A stretch of 64,000 nucleotides of DNA, taken from Hyphomicrobium sp. (GTDB taxonomy: Bacteria > Pseudomonadota > Alphaproteobacteria > Rhizobiales > Hyphomicrobiaceae). The notes under the pieces are model-generated. The model was not told where the DNA came from and made no database searches. It worked only from the letters and a program-made list of their open reading frames with translations. The DNA lies in assembly GCA_030148725.1 (NCBI GenBank), contig JASBSU010000003.1, forward strand, positions 31,553 through 95,552, read 5' to 3'. Within the stretch, counting starts at the first letter, position 1; each line of letters starts with the position of its first letter. The translations under genes were made by a program, and so were the position numbers. Below, in pieces: positions 2,317 to 6,156 of the stretch.

Positions 2317-3096
2317 GTGCTGCTGCTGCGCTCGCTCATATTCGCGCTGGTCTTCTACCTTAGCACCGCCATCTTCGTGGTAGGCGGCTCCTTCCTGCTA
2401 TTTGGCCCTCGCCGCTGGGCCATGGCCGGCCTCAAGGCCCACGCCATCGTTTCGCTTTGGCTGCTGCGCTGGATCGTCGGCACCCGCATGGAGGTTCGCG
2501 GCCGGGAGAAGCTCCCCCTGCCGCCCTACCTCGTCGCTTCGAAGCACCAGTCGGCCTGGGACACCTTCGCCCTGATCCCCATTTTCTCCGACCCGGCGAT
2601 GGTCATGAAATGGGAGCTGTCTCTGATCCCCTTCTACGGCTGGTTCTCGCGCAAGTTCGAGCACGTGTTCGTGCGCCGCGACCGTGGCCCCAGCGCCTTG
2701 CGCGATCTCATTCGCGACGCCAAGGACCGCGCTGCCGCCGGGCGCGAGGTTGTTATCTTCCCCGAGGGCACGCGCAAATCGCCGGGCGCCGAGCCGGACT
2801 ACAAATCGGGCGCCGTGGCGCTCTATGAAGGGCTCGGGCTTCCCTGCGTACCCGTGGCGCTGAACTCAGGGCTCTATTGGCCGCGCCGCAAGCTGCTGCG
2901 CTATCCGGGCACCATCATCGTCGAGATCCTCGACCCTCTGCCGCCCGGCCTGCCGCGCCGCGAATTCAAGCACCTGCTTCAAGATCGCATTGAGACCGCG
3001 GCGGCCCGCCTGATCCTGGAAGCGGAGCAGGCACCGAACCCGCCGCCGATCGCGCCCGAAGCGCTCGCGCGGGCCCAAGACGCCGCGTCGCGCTGA
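2317..3096 (+). CDS. plsC: 1-acyl-sn-glycerol-3-phosphate acyltransferase
   Basis: KHQSAWD (HX4D) and IFPEGTR acyltransferase motifs. Confidence 0.88.
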   Translation: MLLLRSLIFALVFYLSTAIFVVGGSFLLFGPRRWAMAGLKAHAIVSLWLLRWIVGTRMEVRGREKLPLPPYLVASKHQSAWDTFALIPIFSDPAMVMKWELSLIPFYGWFSRKFEHVFVRRDRGPSALRDLIRDAKDRAAAGREVVIFPEGTRKSPGAEPDYKSGAVALYEGLGLPCVPVALNSGLYWPRRKLLRYPGTIIVEILDPLPPGLPRREFKHLLQDRIETAAARLILEAEQAPNPPPIAPEALARAQDAASR

Positions 3097-3227
3097 CAGA
3101 CCTGTCAGTGCTCACATCTGGCTTCAGAAGAGATGATTTAGTGCATTGGATTTTAACGGATTAATTAATTTAAACAGTTGCCTGTTCTTTTCGATAAAAA
3201 TCTAGGAAACGAACATCGCCAAAACGT

Positions 3228-3253
3228 AAAAGCGCCGCCCTGACGGGCGGCGC
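3228..3253 (-). terminator. Intrinsic terminator for the minus-strand small gene
   Basis: Perfect 9-bp stem GCGCCGCCC-tgac-GGGCGGCGC (3232-3253); read on the minus strand it is followed by TTTT. Confidence 0.75.
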
Positions 3254-3311
3254 ATTCACTTCCTGCACCGCAATAATTTCGAGATGCAGAAAACTGAACC
3301 TAATTCGACAA

Positions 3312-3461
3312 CTACTTTTTCTTCGCCGGAGCCTTAGCCTTTGCGGCAGCCGCCTTGGGCTTGGCACGCTCCACGACGGCCGTCTTCGCCTTGGCGGAGG
3401 CAGGAGCAACGAACTTACCTGTAGAGGCCTTTGCGGCGCTCTTGGTGGAAGCTTTGGCCAT
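3312..3461 (-). CDS. 49-aa Lys/Ala-rich histone-tail-like small protein
   Basis: MAKASTKSAAKASTGKFVAPASAKAKTAVVERAKPKAAAAKAKAPAKKK; GAGG 6 nt upstream of ATG; AAG/GCC/GCT codons; terminator about 60 nt downstream. Confidence 0.72.
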   Translation of the reverse strand: MAKASTKSAAKASTGKFVAPASAKAKTAVVERAKPKAAAAKAKAPAKKK

Positions 3462-3657
3462 GTCGAACCTCATCGATCTGGATTTCGAACGCAAGCGTCG
3501 CAACCACTCGAAAACGCACGAACAGCACGAACCTGAGATGTGGTGCTGCGAGTGCGGCTGTATCACATTCTATCAATGGTCCACCGGCGCCATTCAGTGC
3601 GCAGCGTGCAAAGTTGTGCAGAACGGCTTCGAGTTGCCTTCGCTGCCATCGACATGA
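3460..3657 (+). CDS. 65-aa zinc-ribbon-like small protein
   Basis: MSNLIDLDFERKRR...WCCECGCITFY...IQCAACK; two Cys knuckles; mostly G/C third positions; GGTGGAAG upstream as a weak RBS. Confidence 0.6.
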   Translation: MSNLIDLDFERKRRNHSKTHEQHEPEMWCCECGCITFYQWSTGAIQCAACKVVQNGFELPSLPST

Positions 3658-3693: not shown

Positions 3694-3720
3694 GAACATA
3701 AAAGGAATATAGAGAGAACA
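3694..3720. promoter_or_regulatory. Tandem alphaproteobacterial LexA (SOS)-like boxes
   Basis: GAACAtaaaagGAATAtagagaGAACA: three half-sites at 11-bp spacing, matching GAAC-N7-GAAC with one mismatch per box. Confidence 0.6.
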
Positions 3721-3725
3721 TTTGG

Positions 3726-3754
3726 TTGACAGGCGGGCGCGACAACCCCATATT
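3726..3754 (+). promoter_or_regulatory. sigma70 promoter of nrdJ
   Basis: TTGACA (3726-3731), 17-nt spacer, CATATT (3749-3754); ATG follows at 3781. Confidence 0.7.
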
Positions 3755-3758: not shown

Positions 3759-3780
3759 GGCCTAGTGCAGGATAGTGCCC

Positions 3781-6156
3781 ATGCCCGGAGCGTCACCCCC
3801 AGACGAGTTCGATGCCCCCATCTCCCGCCAGATATGGGACCTGAAGTATCGCCTTCGGAGCCCTGACGGCGCAGCAATTGATTCGACGCTCGACGACACC
3901 TTCTGGCGCATCGCCCACGCCGCTGCCGCCAACGAGAAAGGCGGCAAGCGGGCAAAGGATCGTTGGGCCACCCGCTTCCATGACGCCATGTCCGATCTCG
4001 GCTTCCTTCCCGCAGGCCGCATCTTGGCTGGCGCCGGGACGGGCCGCGCTGTCACCCTCTTCAACTGCTTCGTGCTCGGCAAGATCGAGGACGACCTCGG
4101 CGCCATCTTCGACGGCGTGAAGGATGCCGCTCTGACCATGCAGCAGGGTGGCGGCATCGGTCATGACTTCTCGACCTTGCGCCCCAAAGGCGCCCGCGTT
4201 GCCTCGATCGGCGCCGACGCGTCTGGCCCGGTCAGCTTCATGAATGTCTGGGACGCGATGTGCCGGACCATCATGTCGGCAGGCAGCCGCCGCGGCGCCA
4301 TGATGGGCGTTCTGCGTTGCGACCACCCGGACATCGACGAGTTCATCGCCGCCAAGGCCGACGCGACCCAGCTGCGCAATTTCAATCTGTCGGTGCTCGT
4401 CACGGACGATTTCCTGGCCGCGGTGCGCGAGGACCGGCCGTGGGACCTCAAGTTCGGCGGCAAGGTCTACCGCACGCTCCCCGCCCGCGCGCTGTGGGAG
4501 CGCATCATGCGCGCGACGTACGATTACGCCGAGCCCGGCGTCGTCTTCATCGACCGCATCAACGCACGTAACAACCTGCGTTACTGCGAAGAGATCCACG
4601 CGACCAACCCGTGCGGCGAGCAGCCGTTGCCGCCCTTCGGGGCGTGTCTGCTCGGGTCGATCAACCTCGCAAGCCTGGTCGAGCACCCATTCACGAACAG
4701 CGCGCATATCGACGTTGAAAAGCTCAAGGAGCGCGTGAAGGTCGCCGTGCGCTTCCTCGACAACATCATCGACATCTCGAACTATCCGCTGCCCGCCCAG
4801 CGGCAGGAGGCGTTGAGCAAGCGTCGCATCGGCCTCGGGATCACCGGCCTCGCCGACGCTCTGATCTTTTCCGGCCTCCGCTACGGAACGCCCGAGGCTG
4901 CAAAGCTTTCGGCGTCTTGGATGACTGTCATCCAGAACGCGGCCTACCTCGCCAGCGCCGAACTCGCTGCCGAGAAGGGCGCATTCCCGCTCTTCGACGC
5001 GGAACGCTTCCTCACCAGCCCCAACGTCGCGCGGCTCGACGCGGAGGTCCGCGCGGCGATTGCCGAGCACGGCATCCGCAACGGTTGCCTCACCTCCATC
5101 GCTCCGACCGGCACGATCTCGCTGCTGGCCGGCAATGTCGCCTCGGGCATCGAGCCGGTGTTCGACTATCGCTATTCACGTCGCCTGCTTGCCCGTGACG
5201 GGACCAATCACGAGGAAATCGTCGAGGATTATGCCCACGCCAAGTTCCGCCGCGCGTTCGGCGCGGCAGCGCCGCTTCCCGAAACGTTCGTGCGCGCCGG
5301 CGATCTGACGCCCGCCCAGCATCTGGCCATGCAGGCCGCGCTGCAGCCCTACGTGGACAGCGCCATCTCCAAGACCATCAACTGTCCCGAAGGGATTTCC
5401 TTCGAGGACTTCAACAATGTCTATCTCGAAGCACATGCGCTCGGCCTCAAAGGCTGCACCACGTATCGCCCGAACCCGGTCACGGGCGCGGTGCTGCAGT
5501 CCCTGGCGGAGCCCGCGCCCCCGCACGCAGGGGAAAAAGCAGCTGCAAAGCCCTCGCCCGCGGACCCGGTTCTTCCTGTTGCCGGACGCGATGGTGTCGT
5601 GTTCCTCGCCCCGCCGCTCGAGCGTGATGGGATCCTCGCCGGCTTCACCTACAAGCTCAAATGGCCCGGCAGCGACCACGCCATCTACGTCACCATCAAC
5701 GACATCGAGCAGGGCGGACGACGCCGTCCGTTCGAGATCTTCATCAACACCCGCAACCTGGAGCACTACGCCTGGACCGTCGCGCTGACGCGCATGATCA
5801 GCGCCGTCTTCCGTCGCGGCGGTGACGTCACCTTCGTCGCCGAGGAATTGAAAGCCGTGTTCGACCCGCAGGGCGGCCACTGGGTTGCCGGACGCTATGT
5901 GCCGAGCCTCCTCGCCGCCATCGGCGAGGTCATCGAGACGCACATGCGCCGCACCGGCTTCCTGCAGTCGGGCGAAGCACAGCTGGAACTCGCCGACGTG
6001 CAACAGCGGCAGCACGACGCAGCCGCACCCGGCGCCAGCGGACTCGCGCGCGCCGGTGTGAGACCGAAGCTTTGCCCCCGCTGCTCCTCCGCCGACTACG
6101 TGCAACGCGAAGGCTGCTGGTCCTGTAATGTCTGTGGATTTTCGCGCTGCGGGTGA
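3781..6156 (+). CDS. nrdJ: Adenosylcobalamin-dependent class II ribonucleotide reductase with C-terminal TSCPD and Zn-ribbon region
   Basis: PAGRIL, TLFNCFV, GGGIG, TNPCGEQPL (thiyl radical Cys), SIAPTGTISL, KGCTTYRP; terminal CPRC..CxxCGFSRCG. Confidence 0.95.
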   Translation: MPGASPPDEFDAPISRQIWDLKYRLRSPDGAAIDSTLDDTFWRIAHAAAANEKGGKRAKDRWATRFHDAMSDLGFLPAGRILAGAGTGRAVTLFNCFVLGKIEDDLGAIFDGVKDAALTMQQGGGIGHDFSTLRPKGARVASIGADASGPVSFMNVWDAMCRTIMSAGSRRGAMMGVLRCDHPDIDEFIAAKADATQLRNFNLSVLVTDDFLAAVREDRPWDLKFGGKVYRTLPARALWERIMRATYDYAEPGVVFIDRINARNNLRYCEEIHATNPCGEQPLPPFGACLLGSINLASLVEHPFTNSAHIDVEKLKERVKVAVRFLDNIIDISNYPLPAQRQEALSKRRIGLGITGLADALIFSGLRYGTPEAAKLSASWMTVIQNAAYLASAELAAEKGAFPLFDAERFLTSPNVARLDAEVRAAIAEHGIRNGCLTSIAPTGTISLLAGNVASGIEPVFDYRYSRRLLARDGTNHEEIVEDYAHAKFRRAFGAAAPLPETFVRAGDLTPAQHLAMQAALQPYVDSAISKTINCPEGISFEDFNNVYLEAHALGLKGCTTYRPNPVTGAVLQSLAEPAPPHAGEKAAAKPSPADPVLPVAGRDGVVFLAPPLERDGILAGFTYKLKWPGSDHAIYVTINDIEQGGRRRPFEIFINTRNLEHYAWTVALTRMISAVFRRGGDVTFVAEELKAVFDPQGGHWVAGRYVPSLLAAIGEVIETHMRRTGFLQSGEAQLELADVQQRQHDAAAPGASGLARAGVRPKLCPRCSSADYVQREGCWSCNVCGFSRCG

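What the first reader, a model, noticed from the sequence alone, without database searches (positions are those of the whole stretch)
3228..3657. Two small genes start back-to-back on the same palindromic CATG
At 3459-3462 (CATG), the plus-strand ATG (3460) opens a 65-aa Cys zinc-ribbon ORF and the minus-strand ATG (3461) opens a 49-aa Lys/Ala ORF. Each has independent support. The minus ORF has a GAGG RBS, highly-expressed-type codons and its own terminator at 3228-3253. The plus ORF has G/C-rich third positions and a coherent CxCGC..CxxC pattern. If both are real, each RBS and 5' UTR lies antisense inside the other gene's coding sequence, so the two mRNAs must be complementary across both initiation sites. 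This would be a built-in mutually exclusive (excludon-like) switch. The sequence arrangement is observed; the switch is inference.
Basis: partly seen in the sequence, partly recalled or inferred. Interest (0 to 1): 0.8.

Follow-up and report, generated by a model that had tools for sequence, protein, structure and literature searches.

The report
Two small genes interlocked at CATG
Two real, conserved small genes (a 65-aa zinc-ribbon protein and a 49-aa very basic protein) start back-to-back on the same four bases, and this tight head-to-head layout recurs in distant bacteria and mobile elements, so their messenger RNAs must overlap at both ribosome landing sites.

Summary
CATG at 3459-3462 opens a 65-aa Cys-rich ORF (+, 3460-3657) and a 49-aa Lys/Ala-rich ORF (-, 3461-3312). 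The minus ORF has a GAGG Shine-Dalgarno (SD) site 6 nt upstream and its own terminator.

The layout alone is not unusual: 78 of 274 CATG sites in this window have ORFs of at least 45 aa in both directions. Conservation is what makes it real.
- Both ORFs and the shared CATG occur in 26 of 37 genomes of the genus (Hyphomicrobium), with dN/dS of 0.12 and 0.17.
- 41 distinct pairs fall into 8 clusters below 75% identity, at GC 0.41-0.65. They sit in changing contexts: plsC/nrdJ, nuoAB, IS1595 transposases and a prophage.
- Three further lineages keep the head-to-head layout with a 14-15 nt spacer, too short to hold a promoter.

Neither protein matches Pfam, NCBIfam or PADLOC; only some Zn relatives give marginal PHROG hits.

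RNA-run contigs cover both ORFs and cross the CATG, while the flanking genes are bare. These contigs carry no strand information.

Both genes are therefore real and their 5' ends are interlocked. The either/or switch remains an inference. I rate it a new variant of the divergent excludon (face-to-face promoter) theme, in an uncharacterised portable two-gene cassette.

The parts
3459..3462 (.). Shared palindromic CATG. The plus ATG is 3460-3462 and the minus ATG is 3461-3459, a 2-nt overlap of the two coding sequences.
   Evidence: Conserved in all 26 genus loci and in 8 clusters of 41 distinct pairs.
3460..3657 (+). Gene for a 65-aa zinc-ribbon protein (pI 5.8). It has an N-terminal MSNLIDL motif, a helix, and W-C-C-x-C-G-C ... 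C-x-x-C.
   Evidence: dN/dS 0.12. 184 representative clusters in the family. AF2 pLDDT 83.6. Invariant Cys30, 32, 47 and 50.
3312..3461 (-). Gene for a 49-aa Lys/Ala-rich basic protein (pI 11.0). It is a diverged member of the MAKKPSGGKARSAVTGKYVKKSYAKxxPxTTVVE small-protein family.
   Evidence: dN/dS 0.17 with frame-preserving indels giving 49-68 aa. Family members listed.
3468..3471 (-). Shine-Dalgarno GAGG of the basic-protein gene. It is the antisense of the Asn3-Leu4 codons (aaC CTC) of the zinc-ribbon gene.
   Evidence: Synonymous diversity of Zn codons 1-6 is 0.02 against about 0.5 elsewhere. 1 of 5 codons is synonymously variable against 46 of 56 in the rest, Fisher p=0.008. GAGG/GGAG sits at the same place in other lineages.
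3444..3451 (+). Purine patch GGTGGAAG, 9-16 nt upstream of the zinc-ribbon ATG. It is a weak, long-spaced SD-like element and the antisense of codons 4-6 (Ala-Ser-Thr; GGA = antisense of the Ser5 TCC codon) of the basic protein.
   Evidence: conserved cttggtggaagcttt. The Ser5 codon TCC is invariant and pS is 0.13-0.25 for KA codons 1-8. This is only weakly significant, p=0.07.
3222..3253 (-). Intrinsic terminator of the basic-protein gene.
   Evidence: 9 G-C pairs, T-rich tail. Conserved in 22 species.
3254..3311 (-). Conserved 3' UTR of the basic-protein gene.
   Evidence: the block TGCRGAAAACTGAACCTAATTCSACAAC is nearly invariant in the main clade.
3537..3542 (-). Candidate 5' end of the basic-protein mRNA, 76-81 nt upstream of its ATG and inside the zinc-ribbon ORF.
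   Evidence: Unstranded RNA-run contigs end at 3537 in X26 and X28 and at the equivalent of 3542 in X52 on L014. There is a dip in synonymous diversity at Zn codons 28-33. This is an inference, not a mapped TSS.

Best explanation
The locus is a portable, uncharacterised two-gene cassette. One gene encodes a small zinc-ribbon protein and the other a very basic 40-65-aa protein. They diverge from a junction too short to hold promoters (-2 nt here; 14-15 nt in three lineages). Each gene's ribosome-binding region lies in, or directly against, the other gene's first codons, and each promoter must lie inside or beyond the partner gene.

The two mRNAs are therefore perfectly complementary across both initiation sites. 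This should couple their expression negatively through duplex formation, RNase III cleavage, RBS occlusion and polymerase collision.

The basic-protein gene has a good SD, its own terminator, and the strongest RNA signal. It is probably the default product. The zinc-ribbon gene has a weak SD and is probably held low by the basic gene's 5' leader.

Shown: both genes are real, the interlock is conserved, and RNA runs across the junction. Inferred: separate face-to-face promoters, antisense repression, and any functional link between the two proteins.
For: Conservation within the genus:
- Both ORFs and the CATG are present in 26 of 37 genomes of the genus.
- NG86 dN/dS is 0.12 (Zn) and 0.17 (KA), with third-position variability dominant.
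- Indels in KA preserve the frame.

Same CATG pair beyond the genus:
- In another family within a prophage late region, GC 0.41.
- In G296/L075/L076.
- In L126 and L128, where gene callers missed the Zn ORF.
- In metagenomes.
- In total, 41 distinct pairs in 8 clusters.

Orientation and spacing:
- Among 96 distinct Zn-family loci, about 53 have a K-rich partner within 1 kb. It is always on the opposite strand and head-to-head.
- Three lineages have 14-15 nt spacers. In two of them the spacer is the palindrome GGAG..CTCC carrying both SDs.

The pair moves as a unit:
- Flanks differ between clades, so the pair stays together while its neighbours change.

Extra constraint at the junction:
- Synonymous diversity collapses at the junction.

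RNA:
- Declared metatranscriptomes give contigs spanning the KA ORF, the CATG and the Zn ORF, while plsC and nrdJ are uncovered.
- RNA runs hold 0.34-0.68 of the locus's words, against 0.04-0.17 for an equal-length nrdJ control.
Against: - There is no strand information. Every run served was Logan contigs. A single long transcript of one gene running antisense through the other would explain the coverage equally well.
- No convincing sigma-70 promoter was found inside either ORF.
- The synonymous constraint on the KA side is only marginal (p=0.07).
- Each family also occurs alone: L287, L260 and the long viral forms for Zn; L131 for KA. Pairing is therefore not obligatory.
- The word-share control is biased, because the Zn ORF has long nucleotide-invariant stretches shared between species.
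- The X34 high-depth contigs may include DNA, since that run holds a 159-kb contig.
Confidence: 0.55

Rival explanations
1. Frozen compaction. The interlock is a by-product of gene packing on a mobile element. It persists only because any indel at a junction with no spare bases damages a start codon or an RBS. The RNA overlap has no regulatory role.
For: - The cassette is often next to IS1595 transposases or resolvases, or inside a prophage.
- The bare arrangement is common by chance.
- The 14-15 nt spacer variants show that exact overlap is not required.
- Each gene works alone elsewhere.
Against: - Spacing stays within -2 to +15 nt across pairs as low as 38% identical and across GC 0.41-0.65. 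No looser arrangement was ever seen.
- In L126 the Zn N-terminus is remodelled by 5 extra residues, yet the CATG is kept.
- When the partner is absent, the Zn gene acquires a canonical AAGGAGG SD. This suggests that the weak SD in pairs is a tolerated or used feature.
Confidence: 0.25
2. One-way control. Only the basic-protein gene has a nearby promoter. Its long 5' leader covers part or all of the Zn ORF as an antisense RNA. The Zn gene is transcribed only by read-through from upstream genes. The result is a unidirectional antisense brake on the Zn gene, not a mutual switch.
For: - RNA contigs always include the KA ORF plus 50-210 nt of the Zn ORF.
- Contig ends coincide at 3537-3542.
- The Zn gene has only a weak SD.
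- In G045 the Zn gene is co-oriented with phage late genes, and the K-rich gene is the only gene on the opposite strand.
- In L260 and L287 the Zn gene follows a co-directional gene.
Against: - Contigs also cover the distal Zn ORF up to its stop at similar depth (X25 3377-3646; X46 to 15 nt past the stop). A KA transcript starting near 3540 would not explain this.
- The KA terminator is not obviously bidirectional, and no upstream plus-strand promoter was identified.
Confidence: 0.17
3. One of the two ORFs is a non-coding shadow of the other strand, and only one protein is made.
For: - In 3312-3459 the plus frame in phase with the Zn ORF shares its third codon positions with the KA frame. Periodicity there cannot tell the strands apart.
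- Gene callers disagree. The Zn ORF is called at 65, 71, 79, 80 or 95 aa, or missed altogether.
Against: - The two coding regions overlap by only 2 nt, so each is conserved on its own stretch.
- Both belong to families found alone elsewhere with their own SDs.
- dN/dS is well below 1 for both.
- Indels preserve the frame.
- Decay of one partner is visible when it happens (L130, L089, L048), and this shows what a dead copy looks like.
Confidence: 0.03

Closest known systems
Divergent excludons / face-to-face divergent promoters (ExcludonFinder, PMC12288877; Listeria excludons, PMC4179725)
   Same: Neighbouring divergent genes have overlapping 5' transcript ends. This gives antisense pairing, RNase III cleavage and anticorrelated expression. 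Gene pairs that form excludons have short intergenic distances and raised synteny.
   Different: - Described excludons have intergenic regions of about 95-118 nt on average. Here the distance is -2 nt, so both start codons and both RBSs lie inside the duplex and inside coding sequence.
- Transcript overlap is inferred here from geometry and unstranded RNA, not mapped.
CATG-interlocked prophage gene pairs noted earlier in this scan (a RAZR-like zinc-finger HEPN RNase with a small partner; phrog_2266 pairs). These are AI notes. RAZR itself is described in PMC13017515.
   Same: A zinc-binding protein gene and a tiny partner gene on the opposite strand share CATG. The pairs are conserved across many mobile elements, and an either/or logic has been proposed for them.
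   Different: - There is no sequence or fold relationship. The 65-aa protein has no HEPN domain and no PADLOC hit.
- Neither the profile nor the 140-aa relative matches any RAZR chain in the PDB.
- The partner here is a very basic, low-complexity protein rather than a helical one.
- Here the cassette is a stable, strongly transcribed chromosomal locus in a free-living genus.
Type I toxin-antitoxin loci with divergent, 5'-overlapping transcripts (tisB/istR-1, shoB/ohsC, zor/orz). This comparison is from general knowledge.
   Same: Two short divergent transcription units have complementary 5' ends, and that complementarity controls translation initiation of one partner.
   Different: In those loci one partner is a non-coding RNA and the protein is a small hydrophobic membrane toxin. 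Here both partners encode soluble proteins, and neither is hydrophobic.
Generic zinc ribbons (TFIIB N-terminal ribbon, ribosomal eL43/eL37-type, NudC ribbon)
   Same: Two Cys knuckles (CxC and CxxC) flank a short beta-hairpin. The weak Foldseek hits all fall in this class, as do the weak Pfam hits Zn_Ribbon_TF and Zn_ribbon_RRN7.
   Different: No hit is significant (best Foldseek E 0.6). The N-terminal M-x-N-(V/I/L)-(V/I/L)-x-(F/L) motif plus helix is specific to this family.

Membership tests
Divergent excludon | Two adjacent genes on opposite strands, oriented head-to-head | tested here: met
   Conserved in 41 distinct pairs.
Divergent excludon | Transcripts of both strands overlap, shown by strand-specific RNA mapping | tested here: inconclusive
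   RNA-run contigs cross the CATG and cover both ORFs. They carry no strand information, and no raw-read runs were served.
Divergent excludon | Reciprocal (anticorrelated) expression, or RNase III-dependent processing of the overlap | not testable with these tools
   This needs condition-resolved stranded RNA-seq or an rnc mutant.
Zinc ribbon | Four zinc ligands in two knuckles flanking a beta-hairpin | tested here: met
   C30, C32, C47 and C50 are invariant in 31 diverse members. The AF2 model has pLDDT 83.6 with strands 37-39 and 45-47 between the knuckles. Foldseek gives only weak ribbon hits. Metal binding itself was not tested.
RAZR (PD-T7-4) type zinc-finger RNase cassette | HEPN RNase domain fused to the zinc-finger domain | tested here: not met
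   The protein is only 65 aa. There are no PADLOC hits, and the 140-aa relative also has none. Neither the family profile nor the 140-aa relative matches any RAZR chain in the PDB at E up to 1 and 10.
Histone H1-like / known nucleoid-associated basic proteins | Match to a curated family model | tested here: not met
   No Pfam or NCBIfam hit at E up to 1-10 for the window protein, and no Pfam hit for its better-conserved relatives. No PDB hit either. The protein belongs instead to an unnamed family with the motif KARSAVTGKYVKKSYAKxxPxTTVVE.
Type I toxin-antitoxin with 5' overlap | A small hydrophobic toxin plus a non-coding antisense RNA | tested here: not met
   Both partners are coding and under purifying selection. 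Neither is hydrophobic; pI values are 5.8 and 11.0.

The most novel reading that the evidence does not exclude
The interlocked start is a selected, self-contained RNA-level toggle. It travels with a two-protein module on IS1595-type elements and prophages, and it has been domesticated as a highly expressed chromosomal locus in Hyphomicrobium. On this reading the basic protein and the zinc-ribbon protein are functional antagonists or partners, for example a nucleic-acid-coating protein and its zinc-ribbon modulator. The cell is hard-wired to make mostly one of them at a time. The palindromic GGAG..CTCC spacer variants and the CATG variants would be two solutions to the same design.
Probability: 0.25. 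Interest if true: 0.8.

Novelty: new variant of a known kind. Interest (0 to 1): 0.62.

Why it matters
- If the coupling is functional, this is about the smallest possible excludon. It comprises two protein genes, zero intergenic bases, and both start codons and both ribosome-binding sites inside one RNA duplex. A 350-bp natural model would make the long-argued role of 5' antisense overlap directly testable.
- The locus defines two uncharacterised small-protein families. The zinc-ribbon family has at least 184 clusters at 50% identity. The 40-65-aa basic family has no curated model.
- Both families are often missed or mis-started by gene callers, yet they appear among the more strongly transcribed loci of soil Hyphomicrobium.
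- The case adds an independent family to a recurring pattern seen in this scan, in which mobile-element gene pairs are interlocked at CATG.

Tried and rejected
**Family and structure searches**
- Pfam, NCBIfam, PHROGs and PADLOC gave no usable family. The only hits were a marginal phrog_3207 of unknown function and weak generic zinc-ribbon models.
- PDB sequence searches and Foldseek gave nothing significant. The AcrVIA2 hit (E 6e-4 over 17 residues) covers only the CxCGC knuckle and was rejected as homology.
- The first AF2 run used 8 sequences and was poor (pLDDT 59). Only the 31-sequence alignment gave a usable model.

**RNA families and promoters**
- Rfam found only sub-threshold hits on the terminator.
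- Promoter scans found only the nrdJ promoter.
- Two hand-picked candidates inside the Zn ORF were considered: an extended -10 TGATAGAAT at 3567-3575, and TTGATA-N17-ACTCGC. They are not conserved outside the main clade or have poor -10 elements, so I make no claim for them.
- Leaderless transcription of both genes was considered. It was rejected for the basic gene, which has a conserved SD, and is unsupported for the Zn gene, which has no -10 at the right distance, even in the AT-rich G045.

**Sequencing runs**
- No strand-specific reads could be obtained; all runs were contigs.
- The X34 high-depth contigs were not used as RNA evidence. That run holds a 159-kb contig, and the contig breaks are de Bruijn branch points.

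**Other**
- The search for related loci with the broad alignment failed because no conserved stretch was found. It was replaced by degenerate DNA patterns.
- Literature searches for divergent genes with overlapping start codons found nothing specific.

Full report
**1.

The window reads ...gctttggcCATGtcgaacctc... with CATG at 3459-3462.
- The plus ATG (3460) opens a 65-aa ORF ending at 3657, with WCCECGC...CAAC.
- The minus ATG (3461) opens a 49-aa Lys/Ala-rich ORF ending at 3312.
- The minus gene has GAGG at 3468-3471, 6 nt upstream of its ATG. It also has a 9-bp all-GC terminator at 3253-3232 followed by a T-rich tail.
- Flanking genes are a PlsC-type acyltransferase (2317-3096, +) and a class II ribonucleotide reductase (3775-6156, +).

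The arrangement alone means little in a 64% GC genome. 78 of 274 CATG sites in the window have ORFs of at least 45 aa in both directions.

**2. Both ORFs are real genes**

Whole-genome searches found both ORFs in 26 of 37 genomes of the genus. Source names identify the genus as Hyphomicrobium. The match coordinates always overlap by two bases, and extraction shows CATG in every case.
- Nei-Gojobori dN/dS is 0.12 (median; pooled 0.23) for the zinc-ribbon gene and 0.17 (pooled 0.27) for the basic gene. Third codon positions vary 3-4 times more than first and second positions.
- The basic gene varies from 49 to 68 aa through frame-preserving indels. It keeps MAK..., a central TG-x-(F/Y)-V...T-x-V-(I/V)-(E/Q)-R motif, and a C-terminal AAKKK.

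**3. The start codons are the right ones**

Basic gene:
- An in-frame ATG lies four codons upstream (3473, MRFDMAK...). It overlaps the SD and is lost in species whose Zn protein reads NLV (ACGAGG).
- Family members without a Zn partner begin MAK(K) behind their own SD.

Zn gene:
- Upstream in-frame TTG/GTG codons exist, and some gene callers used them, giving 71-95 aa products.
- That upstream frame is merely the wobble-sharing antisense of the basic gene, and its length varies (open frame 81-153 aa).
- Relatives that stand alone or have a spacer start at the equivalent of M1 behind real SDs. These are L287 AAGGAGG-5 nt-GTG, L193 GGAGG-7 nt-TTG and L176 GGAG-9 nt-ATG.

**4. The interlock is conserved well beyond the genus**

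The same CATG pair occurs in:
- G045, from another family with GC 0.41. There it sits between a lysozyme-like and a tail-fibre-like gene of a prophage. A second copy has a Zn ORF broken by TAA.
- L075 and L076/G296.
- L126/L127 and L128/L129. These were reached from the basic-protein side, where annotation had missed the Zn ORF altogether.
- Several metagenome contigs.

In total there are 41 distinct pairs in 8 clusters below 75% Zn identity.

Among 96 distinct Zn-family loci collected with degenerate DNA patterns, about 53 have a K-rich small ORF within 1 kb. It is always on the opposite strand and always head-to-head.

Three lineages replace the overlap by a 14-15 nt spacer:

| Locus | Junction |
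|---|---|
| L176 | CAT-cggagtaattctcc-ATG |
| L193 | CAT-cttggaggtctcctt-TTG |
| L208 | CAT-cttgggctttcctt-ATG |

In L176 and L193 the spacer is a palindrome, GGAG..CTCC, that carries both SDs. The conserved trait is therefore a junction of -2 to +15 nt with no room for promoters.

Flanks change between lineages, so the pair moves as a unit:
- plsC/nrdJ in 22 species.
- nuoA/nuoB or an autotransporter in others.
- IS1595-type transposases, resolvases and DUF3800 elsewhere.

Decayed copies show what loss looks like:
- L130: the basic gene is intact, while the Zn gene has TATG, CCNRGC and an early stop.
- L089: the Zn gene is intact, while the partner is truncated to MAKNSPKKNQR.
- L260: the partner is replaced after 'MA'.

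**5. Dual use of the junction**
- The SD of the basic gene is the antisense of the conserved Asn-Leu codons (AAC CTC) of the Zn protein. The same CTC-to-GAG trick recurs in G045, L126 and L128.
- Synonymous diversity in Zn codons 1-6 is 0.02 against about 0.5 elsewhere. One of 5 codons is synonymously variable against 46 of 56 (Fisher p=0.008).
- On the other side, the Ser5 TCC codon of the basic gene (antisense GGA in GGTGGAAG, 9-16 nt before the Zn ATG) is invariant, and pS for codons 1-8 is 0.13-0.25. That contrast is only marginal (p=0.07).
- The Zn gene thus has a weak, long-spaced SD when paired and a strong one when alone.

**6. RNA evidence**

All runs served were assembled contigs without strand information.
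- In eight RNA or probable-RNA runs, contigs of 118-270 nt at 100% identity lie at 3299-3537, 3334-3537, 3377-3646, 3383-3599, 3280-3455, 3325-3490, 3439-3595 and 3411-3528. plsC and nrdJ are uncovered in these runs.
- On a sister species (L014), declared metatranscriptomes give continuous coverage from just 3' of the basic gene's terminator-equivalent region, across the CATG, to 15 nt past the Zn stop (X46). They also give contigs covering the basic ORF plus 52-81 nt upstream (X51, X52). The flanks are again bare.
- Ends at 3537 (twice) and at the equivalent of 3542 hint at a 5' end of the basic-gene mRNA inside the Zn ORF. RNA over the distal Zn ORF then needs a second transcript or a longer leader.
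- RNA runs hold 0.34-0.68 of the locus's sampled words, against 0.04-0.17 for an equal length of nrdJ. This control is biased by the nucleotide-invariant stretches of the Zn ORF.
- The X34 high-depth contigs were set aside as possibly DNA.

**7. What the proteins are**

The Zn protein belongs to a large unnamed family, with 184 representative clusters at E up to 1e-3.
- It has an N-terminal M-x-(N/D)-(V/I/L)-(V/I/L)-x-(F/L) motif, a basic helix, and then W-x-C-x-C-G-C-x-T-F...G...C-x-x-C.
- There are two size classes, about 55-80 aa and about 130-175 aa. The long form is common on IMG/VR viral contigs and has no CATG partner.
- The AF2 model (pLDDT 83.6) shows a helix at 7-19 and a two-knuckle ribbon. 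Foldseek finds only weak generic ribbons.

The basic protein (pI 11.0) is a diverged member of a family of 40-50-aa proteins, MAKKPSGGKARSAVTG(K/R)YVKKSYAKxxPxTTVVEHDKPKGGKKK. A second subtype reads FKVGRDAxxGxFIxVxEAxxRKxTxIVETIK.

No curated library recognises either protein. The function of both is unknown.

**8. Interpretation**

By geometry, any mRNA of the basic gene contains the antisense of Zn codons 1-5. Any Zn mRNA contains the antisense of the basic gene's SD and start.

The most likely working model (0.55) is a face-to-face pair with negative antisense coupling. The basic gene would be dominant and the Zn gene held low.

| Explanation | Confidence |
|---|---|
| Face-to-face pair with negative antisense coupling | 0.55 |
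| Frozen compaction with no regulatory role | 0.25 |
| One-way brake, Zn transcribed only by read-through | 0.17 |
| One ORF is a non-coding shadow | 0.03 |

**9. Comparison with what is known**
- Divergent excludons are established but have intergenic regions of about 100 nt (PMC12288877). An interlock at the start codons is an extreme variant.
- Earlier notes of this scan describe other CATG-interlocked prophage pairs, several built around RAZR-like zinc-finger HEPN RNases (PMC13017515).
- I tested that link and found none. There is no HEPN domain, no PADLOC hit and no PDB sequence match.
- This is therefore an independent family showing the same architecture.

**Verdict:** It is a new variant of a known kind, with interest 0.62.

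Noticed in passing
window 3694-3754: GAAC-N7-GAAT-N7-GAAC (3694-3719) fits the alphaproteobacterial LexA-box type. It ends 6 nt before a TTGACA-17-CATATT promoter (3726-3754) that drives nrdJ. It is the only such triple repeat in the window (0.01 expected by chance) and is conserved in about 20 species. This suggests SOS control of the class II RNR, or of a minus-strand transcript entering the Zn ORF.
   Followed up: partly
window 3254-3311 (-): The 3' UTR between the stop of the basic-protein gene and its terminator is nearly invariant across the main Hyphomicrobium clade (TGCRGAAAACTGAACCTAATTCSACAAC on the plus strand). It is more conserved than the coding sequence and may be a regulatory or sRNA-like element.
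   Followed up: no
window 3471-3473 (-): An in-frame ATG lies four codons upstream of the MAK start (MRFDMAK...) and overlaps the SD. One database entry (P0169) starts its homologue at the equivalent ATG (MRLVMAKK...). It is absent in NLV-type species, so it is probably not used.
   Followed up: yes
L126 2310-2502 (-), L128 2320-2502 (-): Public gene calls miss the zinc-ribbon ORF entirely at these loci. Elsewhere they extend it to 71-95 aa into the antisense of the partner. This is a systematic annotation problem for the cassette.
   Followed up: yes
L126 1282-2220, L128 1329-2270, L176 4017-4916, L130 5048-5135: IS1595-family transposase genes lie within about 0.3-2.5 kb of the cassette in four unrelated contigs. 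The pair may travel as IS cargo.
   Followed up: partly
L047 402-3001; L048: In G045 (AT-rich, another family) the cassette sits between a tail-fibre-like and a lysozyme-like gene of a prophage. A second copy in that genome has its Zn ORF interrupted by TAA while the basic gene stays intact.
   Followed up: partly
L090-L125 (IMG/VR contigs), L081/L082: A 130-175-aa form of the zinc-ribbon family carries an uncharacterised C-terminal domain (for example ...GGW...). It is frequent on viral contigs and in large alphaproteobacterial genomes. It is always co-directional with its upstream gene and has no basic partner.
   Followed up: partly
L061 / L223: The basic-protein ORF carries a frameshift after codon 17 in one long-read MAG that was binned as Acidobacteriota. 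This is probably an assembly error and a mis-binned Hyphomicrobium contig.
   Followed up: no
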